A DNA stretch of 64,000 nucleotides from positions 5,291 to 69,290 of the forward strand of contig CASFXG010000003.1 in NCBI GenBank assembly GCA_949298635.1, read 5' to 3'. Below the pieces are notes generated by a model that made no database searches, was not told the origin of the DNA, and saw only the letters and a list, made by a program, of their open reading frames with translations. Of the stretch, positions 6,853 through 58,110 are shown one piece after another. The position numbers and the translations under genes were made by a program. Positions within the stretch are counted from its first letter, which is position 1; each line of letters starts with the position of its first letter. Origin of the DNA: an uncultured Coriobacteriaceae bacterium (GTDB lineage Bacteria > Actinomycetota > Coriobacteriia > Coriobacteriales > Coriobacteriaceae).

Positions 6853-7113
6853 CTAGTACAGTGCGATATCGAGCAGACCCATCCCATCGAGCACGTGCGA
6901 GCAAGCGTCTTCCACCAGTTGTGCCAGTGCGCCCGTCTCGCCCGCACGCCACAGCAGCGCGAGCGCGACGACGACCGCCATGAGTGCCGCGATGGTCAAG
7001 GCGTACTCGAGCGTCGCTTGTGCGCGCTCATCGAAGGCTGCTTCCCGCGCCCTTGCAAGGCGCTGTCCGCAACGACGCATCACGCCTACCGTCCAGTCGT
7101 CATGCATGTGCAT
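6853..7113 (-). CDS. Small Flp-like pilin/pseudopilin
   Basis: DERAQATLEYALTIAALMAVVVAL. Confidence 0.7.
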   Translation of the reverse strand: MHMHDDWTVGVMRRCGQRLARAREAAFDERAQATLEYALTIAALMAVVVALALLWRAGETGALAQLVEDACSHVLDGMGLLDIALY

Positions 7114-7121
7114 GGTGCCTC

Positions 7122-7715
7122 CTATTCACCCTGCCGAGTCGTCCCGCTCGATAACCGCATCACCCGGGCAGTTGATGCGTCGTCGCCCTCCTCCGCCACG
7201 ACCGTGACGATATCTACCCATCCGCTCTCGTCGAGCACGATGGCGCCCCATGCGTTTCCCTTAAGATCGAAGTATCCGCTCGTCATGAGCTGAGCGCCGG
7301 AAACTCCCTGGTACGCGCGAAGCACGTCGGCGGCGAGCTCGTTGATGGGCTGTTCCGAAGTCCAGGTACACGACGCTTCGCCATCTGCATGCATCGACGC
7401 GACATGGTCGAGTTTTGCCAGAAACGAACTCGTATCAAGCACGCGTCCTTCAGTCAGCGCAACATCCTCCTCCTGCGAATTTCTGCTCGGCACTTCAGAC
7501 TCTTCGCTCGGCGTGCGATCACTCGAAACGGCACCTGATCCTGCTCTTTGAGCAACAGCGGAATCCGATGTCGTCCTAGAAGGCAACGCAGCTCCCAGCC
7601 AAAGTGCACACGCCGCGCAGATCAGGCAGAGCGCCGGCGCCAGCCAACGCAGGCGAAGCGCCTTGCGCGGTTCCGTCGCACCCGCACCTCGCTCCATATC
7701 CTTTCCCCGCATCAA
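7122..7715 (-). CDS. Hypothetical membrane-anchored protein in the Tad operon
   Basis: N-terminal TM helix, Ser-rich linker; co-oriented and tightly spaced with neighbours. Confidence 0.6.
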   Translation of the reverse strand: MMRGKDMERGAGATEPRKALRLRWLAPALCLICAACALWLGAALPSRTTSDSAVAQRAGSGAVSSDRTPSEESEVPSRNSQEEDVALTEGRVLDTSSFLAKLDHVASMHADGEASCTWTSEQPINELAADVLRAYQGVSGAQLMTSGYFDLKGNAWGAIVLDESGWVDIVTVVAEEGDDASTARVMRLSSGTTRQGE

Positions 7716-7726
7716 CGCATACCTTG

Positions 7727-7954
7727 CTACAGGCTGTTGATACCGTTAGCGATGGCATCCCAGAGCTCCGTCACCTTACCGCGAAACGCTACGATGGCCA
7801 GAATGGCGATGACGACGAGAACTCCTACGAGAATCGCGTATTCCGTCGTGCCCTGACCGGATTCCTCGGCAGCAAGGCTGCGCACCTTGCGGAAAGTGTC
7901 GACCGACACAGCGGGTACCTTCGAGATGAACCCTTCGAGAATCTGCTTTCCCAT
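7727..7954 (-). CDS. flp: Flp family type IVb major pilin
   Basis: EESGQGTTEYAILVGVLVVIAILAI Flp motif; RBS GAGGAGG. Confidence 0.9.
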   Translation of the reverse strand: MGKQILEGFISKVPAVSVDTFRKVRSLAAEESGQGTTEYAILVGVLVVIAILAIVAFRGKVTELWDAIANGINSL

Positions 7955-7964
7955 AACAACCTCC

Positions 7965-8606
7965 TCACAACATGCCGCTCGCAGCGAGCAGCGGTCCTAC
8001 AATTGAAAGCAAGAGCGCCGGCAAGATGAGCGTTCCGGTAGGTATGAGCAGCTTGACCGGTGCCCGTTCGATATCCCGTTCTATCTGCGCGCGATGGGCG
8101 GAGCGAATCTCCCGACTCTGCGCAGCAAGCGTTTCGGAAAGCGGCGAGCCCAGCTTCAGCGCCTGATCGACCGCGATGCCAAACGATTCCAGCGAGCGCT
8201 CTCCTAGGTCGCAGGCCGCGCGTTCGAGCTCCTCCCCGCGCGCCGCTATCCCCATCTGCCAGGACAACCGTGCCCGCATCATGCGGTCTGGCAGCGCGCC
8301 CGTTCGATGCGTGCAATACAGCTCGAGTGCAGCATCGAACGAAAGCCCGGCAGAAAGCCCGAGGCGCACCACATCGACCATCTCGGCGATATCCCCCAGA
8401 ACGACCTTTTCGCGACTCCCGCCCGCGAAGCGTCCGGCAAGCGAACGGATGGCGGCGACCACCAACGAACCTTCTCGCTTCGCCTCGCCAACACCGTGCG
8501 CGAGCAGCGCCCGAAGCCACGCCTTATCCTCTCCCCTCCAGCTTGTCGCCATCCAGGCTGCAGCCATCACGGCCGCACCGATGGGCAGCGCGTCCACGAC
8601 TATCAC
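7965..8606 (-). CDS. tadC: TadC (T2SS F family) platform protein
   Basis: GLSAGLSFDAAL...QALKLGSPLSETL...ERAPVKLLIP..LILPALLL; GTG start overlaps the tadB stop. Confidence 0.85.
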   Translation of the reverse strand: MIVVDALPIGAAVMAAAWMATSWRGEDKAWLRALLAHGVGEAKREGSLVVAAIRSLAGRFAGGSREKVVLGDIAEMVDVVRLGLSAGLSFDAALELYCTHRTGALPDRMMRARLSWQMGIAARGEELERAACDLGERSLESFGIAVDQALKLGSPLSETLAAQSREIRSAHRAQIERDIERAPVKLLIPTGTLILPALLLSIVGPLLAASGML

Positions 8607-44598: not shown

Positions 44599-45045
44599 CT
44601 ACGCGTCCTGCGACGGCTCTTCTTCCGGTGAGGGGACGTGCATCTCGTGAATGCAGCCCACGCCCTCGCGCTCGCACAGCGCATTCAGGCGTTTGTCGAG
44701 CGTGAGCAGCGTCGCCGCGTTTCGTCGCGCAAGCACGAAGTAAAACATGTCGTAGATGGAGTGATTGAGGCGAAGAGATTCGAAGAACGCCTCTTCATAT
44801 AGGCCCTCCATCTCAACGAAGGTATCGGGAACCGAAACGACCGCGTCCACAAACCGTCCCGCTGTTTCCTGGTCGTACACGCCAGCCTTCACATACTTAG
44901 CCATGGTGCTCCCCGCTTCGGCATAGAGCAACGTGGGCGCAAGCACCTCCCGTGGACCTTCCGCTAACGCATATCTACAGGGCAGGGCTTCGTCGAGGTG
45001 CCGCGCCATACCGATTCCCGCGCTGCAGTCCAAAACGAACTTCAT
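44599..45045 (-). CDS. VapC/PIN-domain toxin
   Basis: FVLDCSA, APTLLYAE, HSIYDMFYFVLA, LLTLDKRL; 4-bp overlap with the antitoxin. Confidence 0.9.
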   Translation of the reverse strand: MKFVLDCSAGIGMARHLDEALPCRYALAEGPREVLAPTLLYAEAGSTMAKYVKAGVYDQETAGRFVDAVVSVPDTFVEMEGLYEEAFFESLRLNHSIYDMFYFVLARRNAATLLTLDKRLNALCEREGVGCIHEMHVPSPEEEPSQDA

Positions 45046-45398
45046 CGAGAATCCCTGTCCTCTCTAATCAACTCAGCGACGCTCGGGAAGCCCTCGGGAT
45101 CTTTGGCAATCGGAAGTGCATCGATCCGTGCAAACACCTCGCGCCGGCGCTCGAGCCGCGCTTGAGCCGCCGCCCGGCTCCGTTGCCAGTCGCGATACCC
45201 TGGCTCCCACGGCTTGGGGACGGGAGGAATTCCCGCATCGACCACTGCTTGCACCTCCTTTTCGCGCTTGCGGCGCGCCAGGTAGTCCTCAATTGCAACG
45301 AGCGCCTGCTGCGCGATGCTGCGGTGTTCCTCTTCCGCGCACGTTTTTAAGTCTTCATATACCTGCGGCGGAAGATCGCGCACTTGTAACGCTGGCAT
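45042..45398 (-). CDS. FitA/Arc-like RHH antitoxin
   Basis: MPALQVRDLPPQVYEDLKTCAEEEHRSIAQQ...AELIREDRD; GCATGC repeats at 45412-45428 may be its operator. Confidence 0.85.
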   Translation of the reverse strand: MPALQVRDLPPQVYEDLKTCAEEEHRSIAQQALVAIEDYLARRKREKEVQAVVDAGIPPVPKPWEPGYRDWQRSRAAAQARLERRREVFARIDALPIAKDPEGFPSVAELIREDRDSR

Positions 45399-45588
45399 GT
45401 TGGCCTCCTTCGCATGCGTTTTGCATGCGTATAGCATAACAGCGTCAACAGCTGTATGCAAGAGAGGTAGTTTTCGCAGCTAGATGGGGAAAGTCGAAAC
45501 TTGCAAAAATAGTCGAAACTTGCAAAAGGCGCCCGGTTGAGCACCGCGCGCCTTCTGAGTCATTGAGTCGGGTTCATTTGACGCAAAA

Positions 45589-46846: not shown

Positions 46847-48121
46847 TCACTTTCCGGCAAGCTCCAGCACATAGCGCCATGCGGGAACCACTCGAATGAC
46901 AATCCCGCCGGTCTCTATATCTTCCGTCTCGTTCTTGGTAACAATGACAAATGATGTAACCGAAGCATCGACCTGATGCAATTTCACGAGGTTCCCGACC
47001 TCACGTGTGTGCGCATTCCCTTCGATTGAGTACGCCACCTGCACCGCTGCTCCCGCATCGGGGACATAGAAGTCTATATCGATGCCGTGCTTGGGCGACT
47101 TGAGGTAGTGCAGGCCCTCTCCATAGGCATCCCGCAGTGCAATGGCAACCTGGTTCTCAAGCAATGCGGTATCCCTGTTGTATAGGAAGAGGTTCAAAAG
47201 CCCATTATCTGAGAAGTAGTATTTTGGATTGCTTTCTTGATCAACGAACTTGCTCACCGCATTGCTGAGCGAAAACAGCAGGTATGCATCGTGCGCGTAA
47301 CCTAGATACGAGATAACCGTTTCCTTTGCGATAGAAAAACCAACGCTCTTAAGCGTGTTGTAAAGCGAGCTGTAACTTATATCGCTACGAACGGTCTCTG
47401 CCACCTTCTTCATGAGCACGCGCAGGGCTGCGGGATTCCGCACGTTATTACGAGCAGCGATGTCGCCAAGAAGAACCTTCTGATAGACATTCTCAACATA
47501 CTCACGAGGCTGCTCGAATCTAATGGCCTCGGGGAAACCTCCAAAGCGATAATAACGATCGAACAGGCGCATGATAGCGCCCGCCTCGCGCGTCGTATAC
47601 AGTGCGCGCATATCATGAGCCTGGCCACGAGCATCGAGATACTCATCGAAGCGATATGTGCCGACCTGACGAACAAGATAGCGCCCACCCAACGTCGATG
47701 CCATCTGGCTGCTTAACATGGTCGCGTTGCTGCCGGTGATGTACACGCGCTCGCCCGCGTCTGCCATACGGCGAGCGAACTTCTCCCAACCCGGAACATT
47801 TTGAATCTCATCAAAGAAGTAGTAACCGCGCTCATCGCTGAGCTCGCTTTGCACCTGCACGATATCCTGAAAATCTGCGAGCGAAAACTCCGCCAAACGC
47901 TCATCTTCGAAGTTCAGGTAGATGATGCGCTCCCACGCGACACCCTGCTCGACAAGATCGCGAGCAATCGAGTAGAGCAGCGTAGACTTACCCGCACGCC
48001 TCAAACCGGTGATGATGTAATTGCCCTGCGGGTCAAGATGATAGCGACGTGGAACGATCTTCGCATGGCGAATAACTTCGTGCTGATCGAAGATAACCTG
48101 TTTGAGCACTTCTCGGTTCAT
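46847..48121 (-). CDS. AAA_14 ATPase with DUF4143 C-terminus
   Basis: GLRRAGKST, YLNFEDERL, FFDEIQ, ITGSNA, GGFPE, KYYFSDNGL, LENQV, IDF. Confidence 0.9.
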   Translation of the reverse strand: MNREVLKQVIFDQHEVIRHAKIVPRRYHLDPQGNYIITGLRRAGKSTLLYSIARDLVEQGVAWERIIYLNFEDERLAEFSLADFQDIVQVQSELSDERGYYFFDEIQNVPGWEKFARRMADAGERVYITGSNATMLSSQMASTLGGRYLVRQVGTYRFDEYLDARGQAHDMRALYTTREAGAIMRLFDRYYRFGGFPEAIRFEQPREYVENVYQKVLLGDIAARNNVRNPAALRVLMKKVAETVRSDISYSSLYNTLKSVGFSIAKETVISYLGYAHDAYLLFSLSNAVSKFVDQESNPKYYFSDNGLLNLFLYNRDTALLENQVAIALRDAYGEGLHYLKSPKHGIDIDFYVPDAGAAVQVAYSIEGNAHTREVGNLVKLHQVDASVTSFVIVTKNETEDIETGGIVIRVVPAWRYVLELAGK

Positions 48122-48189
48122 TGTCGCCTCCATGTGTCGAGTATACTGAACAGTATACTCAAATTATTGTCGAATATACTCGACATGGA

Positions 48190-49517: not shown

Positions 49518-49836
49518 GTAGACCCCCTGGGTTCGATTCGCATTCCAGCTGCAAGATGCCGAAGCACCCTGCGGCGGCGCACCATGCTAGCACGAATCGC
49601 CATGGATGCTGACGTTTTCTATATTTTCGTCAAAATATGAACCCAACTATTGAACCGCCAAAAAACGCGTTGAAATGACGATGCTGAGCATCATAGTTAT
49701 CGCGCTCGAAAATCGCGTCCAGATTTCCGTGAGAATCGAGTCTGGAAACCCGTGAAAATCGAGTATGCCGTTGCTCCCATTTCACTGCTCGGGCGGCAAT
49801 CACCAAAGTCTCCCCTCAGCCCACCCGGCGCGCTGG

Positions 49837-50016
49837 CTATCGGAAAGATTTCGTACATTCTTTCAGTAGCCATCTGTCAATCCTTCCTATCGGAAAGAAA
49901 TCGCGATTTCTTTCTTTTAGTGTCATTTTTATCTATCTATCGGAAAAATCTGGCCGATTTTTTCTTTTTGAGCGCTAGAATTCAAGCTATCGGAAAACAA
50001 ACACGTATTGTTTTCG
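49837..50016 (+). repeat. Four-unit array with an exact 50-bp period upstream of the Fic gene
   Basis: CTATCGGAAA at 49837, 49887, 49937 and 49987, each overlapping a GAAA...TTTC palindrome. Confidence 0.85.
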
Positions 50017-50025
50017 GAGGAAGGT

Positions 50026-51276
50026 ATGCCCTACCCCACGCTCGAAAAGTTGTTCTACGCCGACACTACCTCAGATCGCTTTGCCAACCACGAGCGTCTT
50101 CTTCAGTCGCGGCTATCTAACGAGTCGACATTCCGCACGGGCATTCAACTCGAATACGGAGAACTCTTCTTGGCAGTTCCCCGCGAGCTCTCACGTGAGA
50201 CGGAGCATGCCCTTCGTCGCGAGCGTCGCGTCTCCGCCTTATGGCGTACCCTTCCTCCCGTTGCCCTTGGCGCTTACATCCGCTCCCTCATTCTTGATGA
50301 GGTTGTATACAGCAATGAGATGGAGGGGGTTCACAGCACGCGGCGAGAGATCGAAATCGCCCTCGACCACGTCCAAGCGGCAGCGCAAGGGGCGCGGGGA
50401 GACAGCCACGTTGAACATACGCCCTTTGTGGAACTGGCACGTCTCTATCTCAATCTCACCAAAGCGCCCGCGATGCCCTGTTCGCTCGAAGACATTCGCG
50501 CGATCTACGACTCGGTTGTTGCCGATGCCATCGATCCAAAGGATCTGCCAGGCGATGCCCTGTTCCGCTCTGGCCAAGTTGTCGTGGAAAACGAGAGAGG
50601 CAAGGTCATTCACCGAGGGGTCTCGCCTGAGCCCGAAATCGAGCGAATGATGACGCAGTGGCTTGCGCTCTCGAACGATGACGAAATGCCCGAGCTGTAT
50701 AGCACCCTCATGTGCCACTTCCTGTTTGGATACATCCACCCCTTCTATGATGGAAACGGAAGAACGGGAAGATACCTGCTCGCGCTGCACCTGAGCAATC
50801 CCCTATCACAGCCGACCGCGCTCTCGCTCTCGCGCGTCATCGCGGAAAACAAAGCCGCGTATTACAAAGCCTTCGACACAACGGAACGCAAGCTCAACCA
50901 TGCCGAGGGAACGCATTTTGTACTAGGACTGCTTAATCTCATTGGCTTGGCGCAAGAAAGCTTAATCGCCGACCTCGAGGAAAAGCGCTCAGCGCTCGAT
51001 ACCCTCAGCGAGCGTCTCAATACGCTTGAAGGGAAGCTGTCGCAGCGCGAATGCTCAACGCTCTATTACGCTGCCCAAATGCAACTCTACAACTCGTTCC
51101 ACGAGACCAAACTCGATGACCTGTCACGCTATCTTGAAGTATCCAAGCCCACAGCGCGGAAAACCCTTGCGGCGCTCTGCGACGAACACGGCCTGATGGA
51201 ACGCGTGTCCCAACGTCCACCTGTCTACAAACTCACGCAAAAGGGCGTGGATGAGTTGGGGCTCGCGGGAGTGTAG
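50026..51276 (+). CDS. Fic-family protein with C-terminal wHTH
   Basis: SNEMEG inhibitory-helix motif, HPFYDGNGRTGR, C-terminal LSRYLEVSKPTARKTL. Confidence 0.92.
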   Translation: MPYPTLEKLFYADTTSDRFANHERLLQSRLSNESTFRTGIQLEYGELFLAVPRELSRETEHALRRERRVSALWRTLPPVALGAYIRSLILDEVVYSNEMEGVHSTRREIEIALDHVQAAAQGARGDSHVEHTPFVELARLYLNLTKAPAMPCSLEDIRAIYDSVVADAIDPKDLPGDALFRSGQVVVENERGKVIHRGVSPEPEIERMMTQWLALSNDDEMPELYSTLMCHFLFGYIHPFYDGNGRTGRYLLALHLSNPLSQPTALSLSRVIAENKAAYYKAFDTTERKLNHAEGTHFVLGLLNLIGLAQESLIADLEEKRSALDTLSERLNTLEGKLSQRECSTLYYAAQMQLYNSFHETKLDDLSRYLEVSKPTARKTLAALCDEHGLMERVSQRPPVYKLTQKGVDELGLAGV

Positions 51277-51878
51277 TTATGGTTATCGAATGTGTCTAAG
51301 GGGAGCTTACGGCGATCGAAGCATGGCATTGGTTTAGAACGTGCGCCGTTCGATTCGTTTTAAATCAAACAAACTCGATACTATGACGACCCCAATAGCT
51401 CGCTTCGCCTGCGATGAGCCTTTTGAAAATCGATCCTAATTGCTTGTCCGAGGACGGGCGGTTCATGCCGAGTAGTAGCCACGCTTGATAGCGCAGTTAC
51501 CACTCAACCTGTCAGAACGTGGACAAACATCAAAATCAAACTCGGCGGAGGCAAGACACCAAACGGCATTTGACATCTTTTCCGCCTAAAGGCGCGTCGC
51601 GTCTAACCCAGCAGCCAGAAACCTTAGATTGGCGTTTAAAGTAATGCTTAACACGAACTCGCCATTTGCGCATTATGGCTGCGGCGACGATGCGTATATC
51701 GCCCCTCATCTCGATGCTCAAACCGTAAGTGCTGGCTCAACATAACTCTTGACACGTGTGTCCACAGCAACCAATCTTTTCCATCTATTACGGGACGCTG
51801 ACTTTTTATACCCCGAGACGTCCAGTGCTGATAATTGTGAGCTCTGACCGGTAGGGAAGAGCGTCGCCAAGCGTATTC

Positions 51879-52337
51879 TCAGTCGCTTTTACCGCATGGC
51901 GCGAGCTGCCCATCGGGCTTAAAAACACACCGTGAGACGTCAAGCAAATCGAGAAATACCCCCTCGTCAATATAACGAAATGACTGCGGGGCAGAAGAAA
52001 GACCAATCTCCGAAAGCGATATGGGATTATTGGTTTTGAAAACTTTTCCAAGATGATATGCGCACGCGTTTCTTTTAGACTCAGAAAAATAGTCATAGAA
52101 AAAAGCCCGCGTAATCCCGGCATCGCGCTTGGTAGCATTCCATAATTCTCTTTTTGAGCCGCTAAGCTTACCAACAACTTCGACAAAACCAGTAATAGCG
52201 GCCACAGGTTTTGTCTCATAGAGAACGACGTAATCGACAGAGCTGGAAGCAAGGCGCTTTCTATACTCAAAGCGTTTTTCACCTGAGTATATTTTGTCTG
52301 CAAAGCTGCTATGTATAGAGAGGATAATTACTCGCAT
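51879..52337 (-). CDS. ASCH/PUA-like domain protein
   Basis: ILSIHSSFADKIYSGEKRFEYRK, VLYETKPVAAITGF, APQSFRY. Confidence 0.85.
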   Translation of the reverse strand: MRVIILSIHSSFADKIYSGEKRFEYRKRLASSSVDYVVLYETKPVAAITGFVEVVGKLSGSKRELWNATKRDAGITRAFFYDYFSESKRNACAYHLGKVFKTNNPISLSEIGLSSAPQSFRYIDEGVFLDLLDVSRCVFKPDGQLAPCGKSD

Positions 52338-53818
52338 ATCTGTCTACCTTTGACAAGAGCTAAATATGATTCGTGATCCACCCTACAAATCGATTGCGAA
52401 ACCTGAAGGCCAGCGTTATGCATATCTGCAATAGTAATACAGGGCCTATAGTATCCAATTAAGTCGAAAGTTATAACTAATAACCCCCTCGCAGCTCCGT
52501 CGAACATGGAGTATAACTCGCTACGAGAATAAACGGTTCTCCTCTCCACCGACCTGCACAATGTTTCAAAATCGGTGTAGCTAACAGCAGACTTAACAAC
52601 GCCGAGGGGCTCAACGTTCTTCCTATCCGCACTCCGATAGAATAAGAGTAAGTCTCCTGGACGAATGCTCTTTATGCCAGACCTCGAAATATAAACCTTT
52701 CTTATCGTGTTGCTCTCCGATGAATACATCTCTGTATAATCGCTGAATAAGCTCTCCCTGTAAAAGGTAGAAATATCAGGGAATAGCCTTTCGTGCCATT
52801 GGGGCTGAATGGGTACCAGATACTTCTTAACCTGACTTCCGTCTAGATAAGAAGGGAAGTAACTGTCGACATATTTTGCCGCGTCCGCCTCTTCAAGCCC
52901 ATCCGGGCAATCTGTATATTTACCGTATACGGCATCACCGGTGTAATCGCCGAGAAATCGAAAACCAAACTCTTCCACCAGTTTGATCAAATAGGTTTGC
53001 TTATCGGGATTCGTATGAAGATAGACAAACCCAAGATTGTTTTTACGGCAAAACTGAAAGGCCGTATATAAAAGTCGCTCGCCTACTTTTGCTCCACGTA
53101 ATGTCTCCGACACTTTAAATGTGCACAGCTTGAGAACCTTGCCCTTAATTCCAGGAACACTCATCCCACAATCGGGAATATCCTCAATCTTCCATATGCA
53201 TAGAGCAGCAAGTTCCTCGTCTTTTCGGATTGTCCAACACTGGCGTTGGCTCCTAGAACATTTTTCAAACCACTCGGAAAATGCCGGATAGTCCTCCCTT
53301 ATCGAATCGAAAAAAGAATCGTTGACGTTGAGAGTCCTGCAGTACTCATCATTGACACAAGCCAGATCGCTCGAATTGGTTTGTGCGATTCCGCCGAGCA
53401 AAGAAATAAACTCTATTATGCTCAGGACTCGGCTGCGCATCTGGGATTTCTCTGCTTTACGATGCATCTCCTTATCTTCCGTGACCAGATAATCGACTTG
53501 TGAAGTCAGGATGCAATAAAGCAGCTCATTATCAATGAGGTCATTTGCTGACGAATGAGACCATCCCTGCCCTTTCGCAATCTCCGCATTAATGGTTGGG
53601 GCGAACTCGAGAGGCTTGAACTGACCAATTCGCGACAGGACAATCCGTCGTCTGGCGTCATTCCGATCCCTATTAATGTCTTTTATCTGATCAGGATGAT
53701 AATAGTACGCGACGTGCCCTTGCGAGAGCCTCATCATAGCCGAAACGTCCCCGGGCATTTCTTTCCCGGTATCTTCCATTTTTATCAGCACATTAGTGTC
53801 AAGCAAAACATTAATCAT
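52328..53818 (-). CDS. PIN + GNAT acetyltransferase + ASCH/PUA fusion protein
   Basis: VLLDTNVLI...YLVTEDK (PIN); LKLCTFKV..LRGAKVGERLL...FGF (GNAT); VPIQPQWHERLF...IRKVYI...RPGDLLLFYRS (PUA-like). Confidence 0.8.
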   Translation of the reverse strand: MINVLLDTNVLIKMEDTGKEMPGDVSAMMRLSQGHVAYYYHPDQIKDINRDRNDARRRIVLSRIGQFKPLEFAPTINAEIAKGQGWSHSSANDLIDNELLYCILTSQVDYLVTEDKEMHRKAEKSQMRSRVLSIIEFISLLGGIAQTNSSDLACVNDEYCRTLNVNDSFFDSIREDYPAFSEWFEKCSRSQRQCWTIRKDEELAALCIWKIEDIPDCGMSVPGIKGKVLKLCTFKVSETLRGAKVGERLLYTAFQFCRKNNLGFVYLHTNPDKQTYLIKLVEEFGFRFLGDYTGDAVYGKYTDCPDGLEEADAAKYVDSYFPSYLDGSQVKKYLVPIQPQWHERLFPDISTFYRESLFSDYTEMYSSESNTIRKVYISRSGIKSIRPGDLLLFYRSADRKNVEPLGVVKSAVSYTDFETLCRSVERRTVYSRSELYSMFDGAARGLLVITFDLIGYYRPCITIADMHNAGLQVSQSICRVDHESYLALVKGRQICE

Positions 53819-55094
53819 TGCCTACACCGCCTGGTTCGCTTTCCCTCCGCACCATCGCTTTCCCAATCCGATGCGGAATGCCCGTCACCAGTGCATTTCC
53901 CATGCAGAACGCTCGCTGGCCGTCGGTCATGCCGGTGTTGGTCCAGCCTTTGGGGAAGCATTGCAGCTGATCGAGCTCATCGGGAACAAGGCGACGGAAT
54001 CTGCCGTCGGGACACTTGATGATGTGCTTAAAACGCGACGGTGTCACACCGCCCTCTCCGGTGAGAATCGTACGCGAGGGAGCATCGGTCGCATCTGGGA
54101 ATGCCATTTGACCTTCTGAATAATGATATGTATGACCGCTCTTGCTCACACGCTCGATTGACTTCGACCCTTTCAGGTACTCCCAATCCTTGATCTTATC
54201 CTCGGCAACATAAAATTCGGCAGGCACATCGCACTCATTAACCAGGACATCACCAAGCGTGCGTGATTCACCAGAGTAAACGGCTTCAGCGTTTGCGGTC
54301 ACCACGTGCAGACCCTGCATAACGCCCGCCGCTTTGAACTGAGAAACCTTGCGCCCCACGCCAAACTGCTCCGAGTTATCTGCAGGGTTCTCAAGCAAAT
54401 CGAACTCATCCACGTCATCAATCTGATTGATCGGGAACGCATCGGCCATAACGCCATCGTTCAGTCGCTCAGCCAAATCCCACTGCTCGTCCGTCTTCTC
54501 TGCATAGATGTACACGCGCTTGCGCCGCTGCGGATAGCCGTACTCCGCGCTGTTGATGACGCGCCACTCAACTGCATAGCCAAGCGAAGCCAAGCACGAC
54601 AAAATGATTGCAAAATCACGACCACGCTGAGAAGCGGGGCTCTTTAGCAAGCGGTCAACGTTCTCAAATAAGCAATACTTAGTCTTAGGCTTAAGCTGCA
54701 AGAAGCGATAGATATCCCACCAGAGCACGCCCTTCTTGCCCTCAATACCATCTGCCTGGGAAAGCGTACGTGCCACCGAATAATCCTGGCACGGGAAGCC
54801 GCCGACGACCATATCCACATCGGGAATCTCGCGCTCTCCAGCCTCAAATTCATCGAGCACCCTATGGATGTCCTCGTTGACAAACTCGCCCTCGTGGAAG
54901 CGCGCGGCATAACAACGTGCTGCGAATTGCCGCCTGTCAGTGCCCGGCTCCCATTGATTCGCCCAAATCGTCTTAAAGTTGCCCGCGGCAGGCATATCGA
55001 ATTCCGGATGCTCCGGATTGCTATAGCCCTCAAGACCCAAACGAAAGCCGCCGACGCCCGCAAAGAGCTCGGCTACTGTAATCTGTGAAGACAC
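53811..55094 (-). CDS. DNA (cytosine-5) methyltransferase, Sau3AI-like
   Basis: ELFAGVGG, GGFPCQDYS, ENV, QRRKRVY, RTILTGEGG, MGNA; GTG start after AAGGAG. Confidence 0.95.
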   Translation of the reverse strand: MSSQITVAELFAGVGGFRLGLEGYSNPEHPEFDMPAAGNFKTIWANQWEPGTDRRQFAARCYAARFHEGEFVNEDIHRVLDEFEAGEREIPDVDMVVGGFPCQDYSVARTLSQADGIEGKKGVLWWDIYRFLQLKPKTKYCLFENVDRLLKSPASQRGRDFAIILSCLASLGYAVEWRVINSAEYGYPQRRKRVYIYAEKTDEQWDLAERLNDGVMADAFPINQIDDVDEFDLLENPADNSEQFGVGRKVSQFKAAGVMQGLHVVTANAEAVYSGESRTLGDVLVNECDVPAEFYVAEDKIKDWEYLKGSKSIERVSKSGHTYHYSEGQMAFPDATDAPSRTILTGEGGVTPSRFKHIIKCPDGRFRRLVPDELDQLQCFPKGWTNTGMTDGQRAFCMGNALVTGIPHRIGKAMVRRESEPGGVGND

Positions 55095-55255
55095 GTTTCT
55101 CCTTTGCTACTGTGCCTCATTTCGTCCCATTGTATTTGATCGAGCAGACAAATACCAGATCCCCGTTCCAGTCAGCGGAACAGAATGTAAGGTCACCATG
55201 TTTTGTCCGCATGCTCGCCTACAATAGCTTAAGCAGAGGAAAGTGAGGTTGCACC

Positions 55256-56764
55256 ATGTCGCCCCTTGCCGGCCATGTTGAATTCAAGAAGCTCCATGAT
55301 TCCCTCGATGTCTCGAGCGCCGAAAGCATTGAACGCTACGCTGTTCACCTTGAAGGAATGACCTTCAAAGAAGTGCTTGAACTCGGTATTGAACCAGAAG
55401 ACTACAATCCTAAGAATTACGGTGACAAGCACTACAAGGGCGGCATGGGAAACCTCCTTGAAGAAAGATATTTCGGCTATCCCGCCAACAGTGACGATGA
55501 ACCAGATTTTCCTAAAGCTGGCGTAGAGCTAAAGGCCACTCCCATCGACATAAAAAAGAACGGCGACCCCTCGGCAGGCGAACGTCTCGTTCTCACAATG
55601 ATCCCATATGACAAGCCAATCGCAGGCGACTTCTTTGATTCGCACCTTTGGAAGAAATGCAAGCTCATCCTGCTCGTGTTCTATAACCGCGACAGAAATG
55701 TTGGATCATACGACCAGCAAATCACCCACGTTAAGATGTTCACGCCTCCGGAAGAGGATCTTCGCATCATCGCAGACGACTACAAAACGATTGTGTCATA
55801 CATCCAATCGGGTCGAGCGGACGAACTGAGCGAGAGCCTTACCACCTATCTAGGGGCTGCGACAAAGGGCGCAACAGCCGACAAATCTTGGGTGCCGCAG
55901 TACTATCCCTTCATCGACGAAAACGGCAACGTAGTTCATCGCCAAGCAAAGAAGCGATCGTTCTCATTCAAGCGCCAGTACATGGACTATGTTTTGCATC
56001 GATACGTTCTCGAAGAGGCTTCCGAAGTTGAGAAGATCCTCGCACCTGGCGTGCTTGAGCACGAGACGTTCGAACAGCACATCACCGGTCTCATCAACAG
56101 CTTCGTTGGCATGTCTGATCGGGAACTCGCCGCACATTTCAACATGCCGTATACGGGCAACAAGGCGCAATGGACCCAGCTCATATACCGCATTCTTGGA
56201 ATTAAGGGCAACCAAGCCGAGGAATTCGTGAAAGCGGGCATCACGGTAAAGACCGTTCGCATTGAAGAAAATGGCATCATCCGGGAGAGCGTTTCTCTGC
56301 CTCCATTTAAATTCAAAGGTCTCGCGCAAGAGACATGGGAAGACTCGCAACTTCGAGAGTATTTCGAAGAAACGCGCTTCTTCTTTGTTGCCTTCAAAAA
56401 ACGAGACGGCGAGTATCGCCTAGCGGGGAGCGTATTCTGGAATATGCCCGTAAGCGATATAGAGGGAGATTTGAAACGATGCTGGACAGAAGCCCAAGCA
56501 GCGATTCGAGATGGCGTTGAGCTTGTACCGGAAAAGCGGGGGTCTAGGGTTCGCTACAGGAACAATCTACCCAGCGAATCGCAGAATCCCATCTCCCACG
56601 TCCGTCCACATGCGAGTCAGGCCGCCTACCGCCTCTTAGATGGATCCGTGGTTGGAGACCCAGATAAAGATGCAAACGAACTCCCCGACGGCCGTTGGAT
56701 GACCACGCAGAGTTTTTGGCTCAACAGGGGGTACGTACAAAAGATCGTTTGCGATTTCCTGTAA
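55256..56764 (+). CDS. Sau3AI/MutH-family type II restriction endonuclease
   Basis: KGGMGNLLEERYFGY..NSD.EPDF...GVELKATP, ERLVL, second MutH-like domain (KTVRI..E, HVRPH, FWLN); divergent from the methylase. Confidence 0.92.
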   Translation: MSPLAGHVEFKKLHDSLDVSSAESIERYAVHLEGMTFKEVLELGIEPEDYNPKNYGDKHYKGGMGNLLEERYFGYPANSDDEPDFPKAGVELKATPIDIKKNGDPSAGERLVLTMIPYDKPIAGDFFDSHLWKKCKLILLVFYNRDRNVGSYDQQITHVKMFTPPEEDLRIIADDYKTIVSYIQSGRADELSESLTTYLGAATKGATADKSWVPQYYPFIDENGNVVHRQAKKRSFSFKRQYMDYVLHRYVLEEASEVEKILAPGVLEHETFEQHITGLINSFVGMSDRELAAHFNMPYTGNKAQWTQLIYRILGIKGNQAEEFVKAGITVKTVRIEENGIIRESVSLPPFKFKGLAQETWEDSQLREYFEETRFFFVAFKKRDGEYRLAGSVFWNMPVSDIEGDLKRCWTEAQAAIRDGVELVPEKRGSRVRYRNNLPSESQNPISHVRPHASQAAYRLLDGSVVGDPDKDANELPDGRWMTTQSFWLNRGYVQKIVCDFL

Positions 56765-56841: not shown

Positions 56842-57993
56842 TTATCGCAGTAGGAAGTCGCAAGCCGGAACAACCTGCACGCCGTCGGCTCGATAGTTCA
56901 TCTCTCCCCGGTACACCACGCAGCGCCGGTCTTCGGCTATCCCCAGCTCCTCCGATACAACGGTAAGGTGGTGCGCGAATTGGCGGCGATACGTCTCGCC
57001 GGCCTTAATCTCAACCGCCTGCGGCTCCGCTGCGCGCGTGTAGTCGAGCAAATCAATCTCTCGCTTCGTATCATCGCGATAGAAGTAGAGCGTGGGCTCG
57101 TCCCCGTTGTTAAGATGGTGTTTGATTCGCTCTGAGATAACAAGGTTCTCGAACACCTCGCCGCGCTTTTGATGCAGCGCAAACGCGCGCACATCGTCGA
57201 TTTGCAGCAAGCTGCAAAGCAAGCCCGTGTCGTAAAAGTAGAGTTTGGGGGATTTCGCCAGGCGTTTCCTTCCATTCGCATAGCACGGCGGCAGTAAATA
57301 AATGATGTAGCTCGCCTGTAGGAGAGACATCCACGATTTGACGGTTCGTACGTCAACTCCGGTATCCGACGCAATTGACGTGTAGTTCACGATTCCGCCC
57401 ACCGAGTGCGCCAGTATGCCGAGCATCCTGCGGAACTCTGTGAGATTCCGCACGTTGAGAAGCGCCCCGACATCGCGCTCGACATACGCGTCGAGGTAAC
57501 TCCGCATAAACACATCACGCGGCATGTCAGCGTCGTACATGCGAGGGTAGCCCCCCGCCAGCATAAACGAATCCAGTCCGTCACACATGCTATGAACCTC
57601 GGAATACGAGAACGGCAGAAGCGTCAACCGACCCACCCTGCCGGCAAGCGACTGTTGAATTGCCTTCGTGAGCAAGAAGTTTTGTGATCCCGTGAGGACG
57701 TACTGACCGGTGCCGCCGCGAGCATCCGAAAGCACTTGAATCATGCTAAAAAGCTCGGGAGCGTATTGGGCCTCGTCGATGATAAGATGCTCGGGCTGCG
57801 ACTTCAGAAAACCCACTGGATCGGTTACCGCAGCCTCCCGATAATCCGGCTGCTCGAGATTGATGTACGCGAACTCGGGAAAAGCGCTCTTGACCAACGT
57901 GGATTTTCCGCTTTGCCGCGGACCGGTCAAAGAGACAACAGGAAACCACCCAGCAAGCTCCTTGAGCCTATTGGTGAGCGCTCGCTGTATCAT
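56842..57993 (-). CDS. AAA_14 ATPase with DUF4143 C-terminus
   Basis: GPRQSGKST, IIDEAQ, LTGSQN, SLAGR, GGYP, YVERD, KSPKLYFYDTGL, FENLV, EIDL, EIK. Confidence 0.92.
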   Translation of the reverse strand: MIQRALTNRLKELAGWFPVVSLTGPRQSGKSTLVKSAFPEFAYINLEQPDYREAAVTDPVGFLKSQPEHLIIDEAQYAPELFSMIQVLSDARGGTGQYVLTGSQNFLLTKAIQQSLAGRVGRLTLLPFSYSEVHSMCDGLDSFMLAGGYPRMYDADMPRDVFMRSYLDAYVERDVGALLNVRNLTEFRRMLGILAHSVGGIVNYTSIASDTGVDVRTVKSWMSLLQASYIIYLLPPCYANGRKRLAKSPKLYFYDTGLLCSLLQIDDVRAFALHQKRGEVFENLVISERIKHHLNNGDEPTLYFYRDDTKREIDLLDYTRAAEPQAVEIKAGETYRRQFAHHLTVVSEELGIAEDRRCVVYRGEMNYRADGVQVVPACDFLLR

Positions 57994-58022: not shown

Positions 58023-58110
58023 TTCCACAATCATACATTAGCAGCTTCCATAATCATACATTAAAATACTCCACAATCATGCATTAGAAGCTTCCACGAT
58101 CATGCAATGA
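58023..58110. repeat. Four direct repeats with a 23-bp period in the divergent promoter region
   Basis: TTCCACAATCATACATTA / TTCCATAATCATACATTA / CTCCACAATCATGCATTA / TTCCACGATCATGCAATG. Confidence 0.85.

What the first reader, a model, noticed from the sequence alone, without database searches (positions are those of the whole stretch)
51879..56764. Sau3AI-like R-M system whose methylase heads an operon with a PIN-GNAT-ASCH fusion and a stand-alone ASCH gene: candidate composite anti-phage system
Seen: the methylase stop overlaps the PIN-GNAT-ASCH start (53811-53818), whose stop overlaps the ASCH start (52328-52337). This suggests one translationally coupled operon, divergent from the REase. 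The PIN-GNAT-ASCH/ASCH part is visibly AT-richer than the flanks and the block sits between Fic and AAA-DUF4143 genes. Known: PIN domains are RNases, GNATs include tRNA-acetylating toxins, and ASCH/PUA domains read (modified) nucleic acids. Inference: the module could be a guard or abortive-infection backup for the R-M system, or could sense modified phage DNA that escapes restriction, or could write/read a second base modification. I know of no characterised system with exactly this arrangement, but could not search.
Basis: partly seen in the sequence, partly recalled or inferred. Interest (0 to 1): 0.8.

Follow-up and report, generated by a model that had tools for sequence, protein, structure and literature searches.

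The report
Restriction system with inserted toxin-antitoxin cassette
An ordinary restriction-modification gene pair has a separately acquired two-gene cassette inserted right behind its methylase gene; the cassette belongs to an already catalogued but biochemically unexplained family that likely works as an anti-phage toxin-antitoxin pair, so this is one more member of a known kind and not a new composite system.

Summary
All four genes, both overlaps (8 and 10 nt) and the AT-rich patch are real. The 496-aa and 152-aa proteins match PADLOC candidate PDC-M11A/B (E 4e-116, 9e-35), the (PIN)-GNAT-EVE + ASCH operon of Iyer 2013 and Bell 2020, already reported beside type I R-M. The R-M is a standard Sau3AI-family system. 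They are separate modules. A same-genus genome has the same R-M at the same site without the cassette. None of 66 other family genomes with this REase has a full-length copy. None of 80 homologous loci has a C5 methylase directly upstream. The methylase overlap is the insertion junction. The cassette is defence-associated (R-M within 8 kb in 40 of 80 loci), and the junction recurs at about 91% identity in two other studies' metagenomes. A PIN-less phage homologue is annotated 'GevT toxin / GevA antitoxin' in GenBank; I found no paper on it. Most likely the fusion is the toxin and ASCH the antitoxin. The ASCH keeps the S7/K21/E24/R26 residues of the EOLA1 deacetylase clade, so it may erase the acetyl mark (untested). 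The scan met this family before in other genomes.

The parts
55256..56764 (+). Sau3AI-family type II restriction endonuclease (502 aa)
   Evidence: NCBIfam NF040973 511 bits vs cut-off 300; two MutH stretches; D...E-x-K catalytic-type motif at about residues 85-98
53811..55094 (-). C5-cytosine DNA methyltransferase (427 aa), divergent from the REase; last ~12 residues differ from orthologues and come from the insertion junction
   Evidence: PF00145 E 1.3e-53; TIGR00675 above cut-off; motifs I, IV (PCQ), VI (ENV), VIII, IX, X present; C-termini compared
52328..53818 (-). PIN-GNAT-EVE/ASCH-fold fusion (496 aa) = PDC-M11A; predicted toxin
   Evidence: PADLOC E 4.4e-116 over residues 3-491; AlphaFold mean pLDDT 91; fold matches; conservation; 28% identical over 351 aa to phage GevT
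51879..52337 (-). Stand-alone ASCH protein (152 aa) = PDC-M11B; predicted antitoxin; keeps S7, K21, E24, R26, Y40
   Evidence: PADLOC E 8.6e-35; ZmASCH E 1.5e-9 and Z 18.2, rmsd 2.1, 138 aligned; invariant columns in 55 sequences; 35% identical to GevA
51730..53849 (.). Approximate extent of the inserted cassette (left edge uncertain by tens of bases)
   Evidence: Nucleotide similarity to same-genus G004 stops at 53849; remnant of the neighbouring gene ends near 51706
51411..51706 (+). Remnant of the 3' end of an AAA-DUF4143 gene that is intact and lies right behind the methylase in G004
   Evidence: tblastn E 1.2e-11, three pieces covering residues 312-441 of 447; Pfam of the G004 gene
50008..51276 (+). 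Flank: Fic-domain gene
   Evidence: PF02661; PADLOC SoFic E 3.5e-36 but far below the NCBIfam cut-off
56842..57993 (-). Flank: AAA_14-DUF4143 gene (PADLOC candidate PDC-S01)

Best explanation
This is a standard Sau3AI-family restriction-modification pair plus a separately acquired PDC-M11 (PIN-GNAT-EVE + ASCH) cassette that sits in the 3' end of the methylase gene and likely acts on its own as an anti-phage toxin-antitoxin pair. Shown: the genes, folds and conserved active-site-type residues; the R-M without the cassette at the same site in a sister genome; the cassette without this R-M in most other loci. Inferred: the R-M methylates and cuts GATC, by family assignment. The cassette is probably read through from the methylase promoter. 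The 496-aa fusion is probably the toxin: its C-terminal PUA-fold domain would bind a nucleic-acid target (tRNA or other RNA most likely), the GNAT would acetylate it and the PIN would cut RNA, stopping translation in an infected cell. The ASCH protein probably keeps it in check, by binding or by hydrolysing the acetyl mark. Any backup given to the R-M would be generic layering inside a defence hotspot, not a dedicated partnership.
For: Family: PDC-M11A/B hits; Bell 2020 describes the same architecture with an ASCH gene in almost all operons and predicts toxin-antitoxin function (passages). Pair linkage: ASCH follows on the same strand in 76 of 80 loci, is adjacent but convergent in 2, upstream in 1, and 1 locus ends at the contig edge. 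Independence of the R-M: G004 has methylase 90% and REase 85% identical at the orthologous site with an AAA-DUF4143 gene instead and no match to the fusion. 66 of 250 other family genomes carry a Sau3AI-like REase; none has a full-length fusion, and two (G184, G210) have a PIN-less homologue on a different contig. Independence of the cassette: C5 methylase within 8 kb in 3 of 80 loci, Sau3AI-like REase in 1, neither ever directly upstream. The four nearest relatives in the tree and 4 further same-class genomes out of 400 have no such R-M nearby. Polarity: orthologous methylases end about 8 residues earlier, as in G004; a remnant of G004's neighbouring gene flanks the cassette; cassette GC is 0.44-0.45 vs 0.51-0.55 for the R-M. 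Toxin-antitoxin: GenBank PV340567 labels a PIN-less homologue 'GevT toxin' and its ASCH 'GevA antitoxin', next to cI in a lambdoid phage; both are PDC-M11 and homologous to the window's proteins. Residues: PIN D7, D93, D96, D115 invariant and D47 D/E in 65 of 65; GNAT R-G-x-K-x-G with G242, K244, G246 invariant, aligning with motif A of solved GNATs.
Against: No activity, expression or phage data exist for this locus. The GevT/GevA names come from one GenBank record; I found no paper behind them, and GevT lacks the PIN domain and is only 28% identical. Matelska 2017 argue that PIN-associated GNATs lack motif A and are probably inactive. The methylase-fusion junction is kept at about 91% identity in contigs from two other studies, so the linkage has lasted within one lineage, which a useful partnership would also give. 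Half of the loci do have an R-M neighbour, mostly N6-adenine type I/IIG. Half have none detected, so defence itself is inferred; no random-locus background was computed.
Confidence: 0.6

Rival explanations
1. Dedicated guard or backup of this R-M: the cassette monitors the methylase or its 5mC-GATC mark and kills the cell when phage blocks restriction.
For: 8-nt overlap puts it in the methylase operon. The junction is conserved at about 91% identity in contigs X10 record 12 and X14 record 17. PUA-fold relatives such as THYN1 and McrB-N bind 5mC DNA (rows). The family is often next to R-M (Bell 2020).
Against: The R-M is found without it in G004 and, for the full-length fusion, in all 66 other REase-positive family genomes. 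A contig of run X5 has the G004-type allele. No C5 methylase lies directly upstream in 80 loci. The overlap arises from junction-derived codons. Upstream partners are mixed: HsdS, HsdR, HsdM, GmrSD, HNH, KAP NTPase.
Confidence: 0.1
2. Base-modification system: the GNAT writes an acetyl mark on DNA or RNA bases as a self mark or regulatory mark, and the two PUA-fold domains read or remove it, as Iyer et al. proposed.
For: Proposal reported in Bell 2020 and Matelska 2017 (Iyer 2013 itself not held). The GNAT motif is conserved. The ASCH has the K21/E24/R26 set of the EOLA1 ac4C deacetylase clade.
Against: The toxin/antitoxin annotation of the phage homologue. An intact PIN active site points to RNA destruction. 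The fold matches are protein and small-molecule N-acetyltransferases, which does not favour a DNA substrate.
Confidence: 0.15
3. Sensor of modified phage nucleic acid: the PUA-fold domains recognise modified bases of phages that escape restriction and switch on the PIN/GNAT effector.
For: EVE/ASCH domains are modified-base readers in type IV restriction enzymes (Bell 2020). Structural neighbours include McrB-N, VcaM4I, THYN1 and YTH. GmrSD lies directly upstream in 2 loci.
Against: The closest solved relative, ZmASCH, stands well above these readers (Z 18.2 vs 8.5-9.4); it binds and weakly cuts ssRNA regardless of the methylations tested. No DNase domain is present. This rival may be only the trigger step of the best explanation.
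Confidence: 0.1
4. Selfish addiction module with no anti-phage role, drifting into an insertion hotspot.
For: Patchy distribution: 1 of 9 genus genomes, 5 of 401 class genomes. Near-identical copies occur in different Bacteroidales genera. No R-M or defence gene was detected in 26 of 80 loci.
Against: Frequent placement in R-M/defence clusters. PDC candidates were defined by embedding in BREX/DISARM/type I R-M. The phage homologue sits directly behind cI, the slot of lambda rexAB (recalled).
Confidence: 0.08

Closest known systems
PADLOC candidate PDC-M11 (PDC-M11A + PDC-M11B); Payne et al. 2024, bioRxiv 10.1101/2024.01.29.577857
   Same: Both proteins hit the two models over nearly full length and are adjacent in the usual order. 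The PDC set was defined by embedding in BREX/DISARM/type I R-M and described as untested.
   Different: Here the neighbour is a type II Sau3AI-family C5 system. The main text does not name M11; its supplementary tables could not be seen.
(PIN)-GNAT-EVE + ASCH (+ AAA_17) operons: Bell, Wolf & Koonin 2020 (PMC7641849), crediting Iyer et al. 2013; PIN_15/PIN_17 of Matelska et al. 2017 (PMC5499597)
   Same: Same domain order, second PUA-like ASCH gene, association with R-M and other defence genes, predicted toxin-antitoxin role.
   Different: No AAA_17 or HTH component here. The partner R-M is type II, not type I ('Sau3AI' has 0 hits in Bell's main text). A motif-A-like R-G-x-K-x-G is conserved here, against Matelska's statement that motif A is missing.
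GevT/GevA of Escherichia phage PhiR47_2 (GenBank PV340567)
   Same: GNAT-EVE + ASCH pair, PDC-M11 by PADLOC; 28% and 35% identical to the window's proteins; annotated toxin and antitoxin.
   Different: Lacks the PIN domain and is prophage-borne next to cI. The evidence behind the names was not found in the library.
Sau3AI-family type II R-M (NCBIfam NF040973 + C5 methylase)
   Same: REase above the equivalog cut-off, intact methylase motifs, and divergent layout shared by all 30 REase loci fetched, the window's included.
   Different: Methylase has a junction-derived C-terminal tail. GATC specificity is assumed from the family; GATC observed/expected in the genome is 0.79, third lowest of 16 palindromes, which is weak support.
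ZmASCH (PDB 5GUQ; PMC5615036), EOLA1 (bioRxiv 10.64898/2026.08.01.741249) and YqfB (PMC9599836)
   Same: ZmASCH is the closest solved structure. Its Y47 aligns to invariant Y40. EOLA1's S7, K21, E24, R26 match the ASCH's invariant residues.
   Different: ZmASCH is reported as a weak ssRNase and EOLA1/YqfB as ac4C deacetylases; YqfB has Thr, not Glu, at position 24. EOLA1 activity was not seen for the mouse protein in another study. None was tested as an antitoxin.

Membership tests
PDC-M11 / (PIN)-GNAT-EVE + ASCH operon | Large protein matches PDC-M11A | tested here: met
   E 4.4e-116, residues 3-491 vs profile 2-491/501
PDC-M11 / (PIN)-GNAT-EVE + ASCH operon | Adjacent co-oriented ASCH gene matching PDC-M11B | tested here: met
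   E 8.6e-35; 10-nt overlap
PDC-M11 / (PIN)-GNAT-EVE + ASCH operon | Domain order PIN, GNAT, PUA-like | tested here: met
   GNAT 153-305 and ASCH-fold 329-496 by structure; PIN by motif and sub-cutoff Pfam hits
PDC-M11 / (PIN)-GNAT-EVE + ASCH operon | C-terminal domain is EVE specifically, as Bell 2020 class it | tested here: inconclusive
   No Pfam EVE hit; best solved match is ZmASCH. The PUA/ASCH superfamily is shown, the subfamily label is not.
Sau3AI-family type II R-M | Sau3AI-family REase with catalytic motif | tested here: met
   NF040973 511 bits vs 300; motif
Sau3AI-family type II R-M | Adjacent intact C5 methylase | tested here: met
Sau3AI-family type II R-M | GATC methylation and cleavage | not testable with these tools
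   Only indirect: GATC O/E 0.79
Toxin-antitoxin / abortive infection (GevTA-like) | Two-gene operon homologous to an annotated toxin and antitoxin | tested here: met
Toxin-antitoxin / abortive infection (GevTA-like) | Toxicity of the large protein, rescue by ASCH, phage protection | not testable with these tools
   Needs expression and phage challenge
VapC-like PIN ribonuclease | Three to four conserved acidic active-site residues | tested here: met
   D7, D93, D96, D115 in 65 of 65; D47 D/E in 65 of 65
VapC-like PIN ribonuclease | PIN fold match to a solved structure | tested here: inconclusive
   Not listed in whole-protein fold searches; profile hits to PIN chains 1o4w E 0.044 and 3ix7 E 0.18; domain not folded alone
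Active GNAT acetyltransferase | Acetyl-CoA-binding motif A (R/Q-x-x-G-x-G) | tested here: inconclusive
   Variant R-G-x-K-x-G: G242, K244, G246 invariant, R241 in 49 of 65; aligns to motif A of solved GNATs; Lys replaces the middle Gly; activity untested
ASCH ac4C deacetylases (EOLA1/YqfB) | K21, E/T24, R26 catalytic set | tested here: met
   Invariant in 55 of 55; residues as. This is also the general ASCH signature (recalled), so it is necessary, not sufficient.
ASCH ac4C deacetylases (EOLA1/YqfB) | Amidohydrolase activity | not testable with these tools
   Needs enzyme assay
   0 of 80 loci directly behind a C5 methylase; 0 of 4 other class members; 0 of 66 other REase-positive family genomes with the full-length fusion; linkage seen only in close relatives

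The most novel reading that the evidence does not exclude
PIN-GNAT-EVE + ASCH is a writer-eraser toxin-antitoxin system. The GNAT acetylates an RNA base or nucleotide, the fused PIN destroys marked RNA, and the ASCH antitoxin is an enzyme that removes the acetyl group with its EOLA1-type K21/E24/R26 site. Docking into the operons of unrelated R-M systems, here a 5mC methylase, would make it a general-purpose guard that fires when phage shuts down R-M expression.
Probability: 0.12. Interest if true: 0.75.

Novelty: new member of a known kind. Interest (0 to 1): 0.3.

Why it matters
As a locus it is ordinary defence-island layering. Its value is as a clean natural pair of alleles (same R-M with and without the cassette in one genus) for a widespread family, over 1,400 protein clusters in one search, whose chemistry has been predicted since 2013 but for which I found no published characterisation. 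If the ASCH proved to be a deacetylating antitoxin, it would give the bacterial ASCH proteins of this clade a function and define an acetylation writer-eraser type of anti-phage toxin-antitoxin system.

Tried and rejected
Complex prediction of GNAT-PUA (150-496) with ASCH gave no verdict (score 0.00, mark 0.32) and is not used either way. No RNA holder was listed among public runs. Promoter and terminator scans gave counts near shuffled levels (5 vs 5.5; 10 vs 6.0, sd 2.9), so operon limits could not be placed. No terminal repeats or target duplication were seen at the cassette edges among the repeats listed. IMG/VR search with the single protein found no relative. Literature searches for a characterisation of PDC-M11, PIN-GNAT-EVE/ASCH or GevT/GevA found only predictive papers; PDC-M11 is mentioned once in each of two 2026 preprints seen as listings only. 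Iyer 2013 and a guessed source paper for GevT were not held. PMC10853773 and PMC12704722 passages were not relevant. The tree is the quick version with 75 of 81 rows (6 short or split rows left out) and long branches at the window, so no donor is claimed. Rejected: novelty of the divergent R-M layout (30 of 30 fetched loci share it); a deletion in G004 in place of an insertion here (orthologous methylase ends match G004).
Full report
Observation. The four ORFs are present at the stated coordinates: ASCH 51879-52337, fusion 52328-53818 and methylase 53811-55094 on the minus strand, REase 55256-56764 on the plus strand. They lie between a Fic gene and an AAA_14-DUF4143 gene. The overlaps are 8 and 10 nt. 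The two cassette genes are 44-45% GC, the R-M genes 51-55% and the genome 62.6%. The R-M is itself foreign-looking, and the cassette more so.

The R-M part. The REase passes the NCBIfam Sau3AI equivalog cut-off (511 vs 300 bits), and the methylase has all C5 motifs. It is common in this family: 67 of 251 genomes match the REase (51 stand-alone full length including the window's, 15 in long fused frames, 1 fragment). All 30 loci fetched have the same divergent layout. GATC specificity is inferred from the family only.

The cassette. Both proteins match PADLOC candidate PDC-M11 (A: E 4.4e-116; B: E 8.6e-35). Payne et al. 2024 defined the PDC set by embedding in BREX, DISARM and type I R-M and call it untested (passages; M11 is not named in the main text; supplements closed). 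Bell et al. 2020 describe (PIN)-GNAT-EVE fusions, almost always with an ASCH gene and often near type I R-M, predict toxin-antitoxin function, and state that none was characterised (passages). They credit Iyer et al. 2013, which I could not read. Matelska et al. 2017 list the same architecture under PIN_15/PIN_17 (passages). The model of the fusion is confident (pLDDT 91) and matches GNATs at 153-305 (Z 16.1) and ZmASCH at 329-496 (Z 15.4). The PIN domain rests on sub-cutoff Pfam hits in 12 of 37 homologues and on invariant D7, D93, D96, D115 and D/E47. The GNAT has R-G-x-K-x-G at motif A; Matelska regard such GNATs as probably inactive, so activity is open. The small protein is an ASCH closest to ZmASCH (E 1.5e-9; Z 18.2), with invariant S7, K21, E24, R26 and Y40 in 55 sequences.

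Is it one system? From the cassette's side: 272 genome stretches encode a relative and the best 80 were returned. ASCH follows on the same strand in 76, overlapping in 73; it is convergent in 2, upstream in 1, and cut off in 1. I scanned 172 of 854 neighbouring ORFs against Pfam and spread the labels by BLAST, so the counts are lower bounds. R-M genes lie within 8 kb in 40 of 80 loci (18 of 43 with at least 5 kb on both sides). By type: N6-methylase 27, HsdS 20, HsdR/Res 17, C5 methylase 3, Sau3AI-like REase 1. With other defence-type genes (my grouping, which includes Fic, RhuM, YhcG, HNH, RloB, Thoeris) the count is 54 of 80. A same-strand gene ends within 30 bp upstream in 27 of 73 loci, and it is of many kinds but never a C5 methylase. 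In L013 the order is Sau3AI-like REase, methylase, two other genes, then the cassette. No random background was computed. The window's protein groups with four other actinobacterial copies (support 99, quick tree, long branches); none has this R-M nearby. Of 400 other genomes of the class, 4 have the fusion, one of them beside type I R-M and none beside a C5 system.

From the R-M's side: same-genus genome G004 is syntenic, with methylase 90% and REase 85% identical, but has an intact AAA-DUF4143 gene where the cassette sits and no match to the fusion. Nucleotide similarity stops at window 53849, inside the last codons of the methylase. G004's methylase ends like three other orthologues, while the window's has a different, longer tail that produces the 8-nt overlap. 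A remnant of the 3' end of G004's AAA-DUF4143 gene lies at 51411-51706. The simplest reading is an insertion of about 2.1 kb between those two gene ends. None of the 66 other REase-positive genomes has the full-length fusion; two have a PIN-less homologue on another contig, and G017 has a full-length homologue but no REase match.

Result against that reading: the arrangement is not a one-off. Contigs from two other studies bridge the methylase-fusion junction with 50 differences in 546 bases (X10) and 106 in 1154 (X14), and one from a third links Fic to ASCH (X6). A contig of X5 leaves the window's sequence at 53847 and continues like G004 (compared by eye). Both alleles therefore circulate, and the coupled one has persisted over about 9% divergence. 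That fits one old insertion kept in a lineage, useful or merely stable. X1 holds the whole stretch in one contig but may be the source of this DNA.

Mechanism. The best lead is GenBank PV340567, where a PIN-less homologue is labelled 'GevT toxin' and its ASCH 'GevA antitoxin', directly behind cI of a lambdoid phage; 8 phage records carry that pair at 99% or more identity. Both are PDC-M11 and are 28% and 35% identical to the window's proteins. I found no paper for these names. I therefore commit to a stand-alone toxin-antitoxin pair with anti-phage effect (0.6): the fusion binds RNA through its PUA-fold domain, acetylates and/or cleaves it, and ASCH neutralises it. Every step of that sentence is inferred. 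How ASCH neutralises is open. A 2026 preprint reports human EOLA1 as an ac4C deacetylase using K21/E24/R26, notes bacterial homologues in R-M operons, and notes that mouse EOLA1 was inactive in another study (passages). YqfB uses K21/T24/R26/E74 (passages). ZmASCH is a weak ssRNase (passages). The window's ASCH keeps the EOLA1 set, which makes an enzymatic eraser testable, but the motif is the general ASCH signature (recalled).

Verdict. Earlier notes of this scan reached the same family assignment for other genomes; none covers this sequence or place. Interest 0.3.

Noticed in passing
L102:5605-8274 (also L101, L103-L107): Single-chain fusions (about 850-920 aa) of a Sau3AI-like REase to a C5 methylase in 15 family genomes; PADLOC REase_II at 34-406 and MTase_II at 481-834 in L102.
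   Followed up: partly
window 49837-50018: Four copies of a ~32-nt repeat at an exact 50-nt period just upstream of the Fic gene; possible operator array, unexplained.
   Followed up: no
window 58023-58103: 23-nt tandem repeat, 3.5 copies, upstream of the AAA-DUF4143 gene; a 23-nt copy is missing in run X5. G004 also has short repeated copies of window 49708-49767 upstream of its own AAA-DUF4143 gene.
   Followed up: no
L010, L013, L015, L023, L025, L031, L042 (about 7100-8004; L031 467-1363): An HNH_5 gene of about 300 aa lies directly upstream of, and mostly overlaps, the PIN-GNAT fusion in 7 Bacteroidales loci.
   Followed up: partly
L003:9464-10384 and others; L035:3300-4763: ASCH partner is longer than 280 aa in 18 loci; an AAA_17 fusion in L003 and a RhuM/Fic fusion in L035.
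   Followed up: partly
L001:8001-9869; L002:3724-5589: In the two closest homologues the ASCH gene is convergent with the fusion instead of co-oriented, so translational coupling is not required for the pair.
   Followed up: no
window 44599-45461: RHH + PIN gene pair, VapBC-like, a second probable toxin-antitoxin module 6 kb away.
   Followed up: no
window 46847-48133: A second AAA_14-DUF4143 (PDC-S01) gene; with 56842-57993 and the remnant at 51411-51706 there are three copies or traces in 11 kb.
   Followed up: partly
L123:4004-5849: Archaeal prophage psiM100 carries a full-length PIN-GNAT-PUA homologue (31% identity) mostly inside its 'inserted fragment IFa', overlapping a small downstream ORF.
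   Followed up: no
L118-L121: PIN-less GNAT-EVE + ASCH pairs in four genomes of another genus of the family, behind unannotated ~113-130 aa and ~313-322 aa genes.
   Followed up: partly
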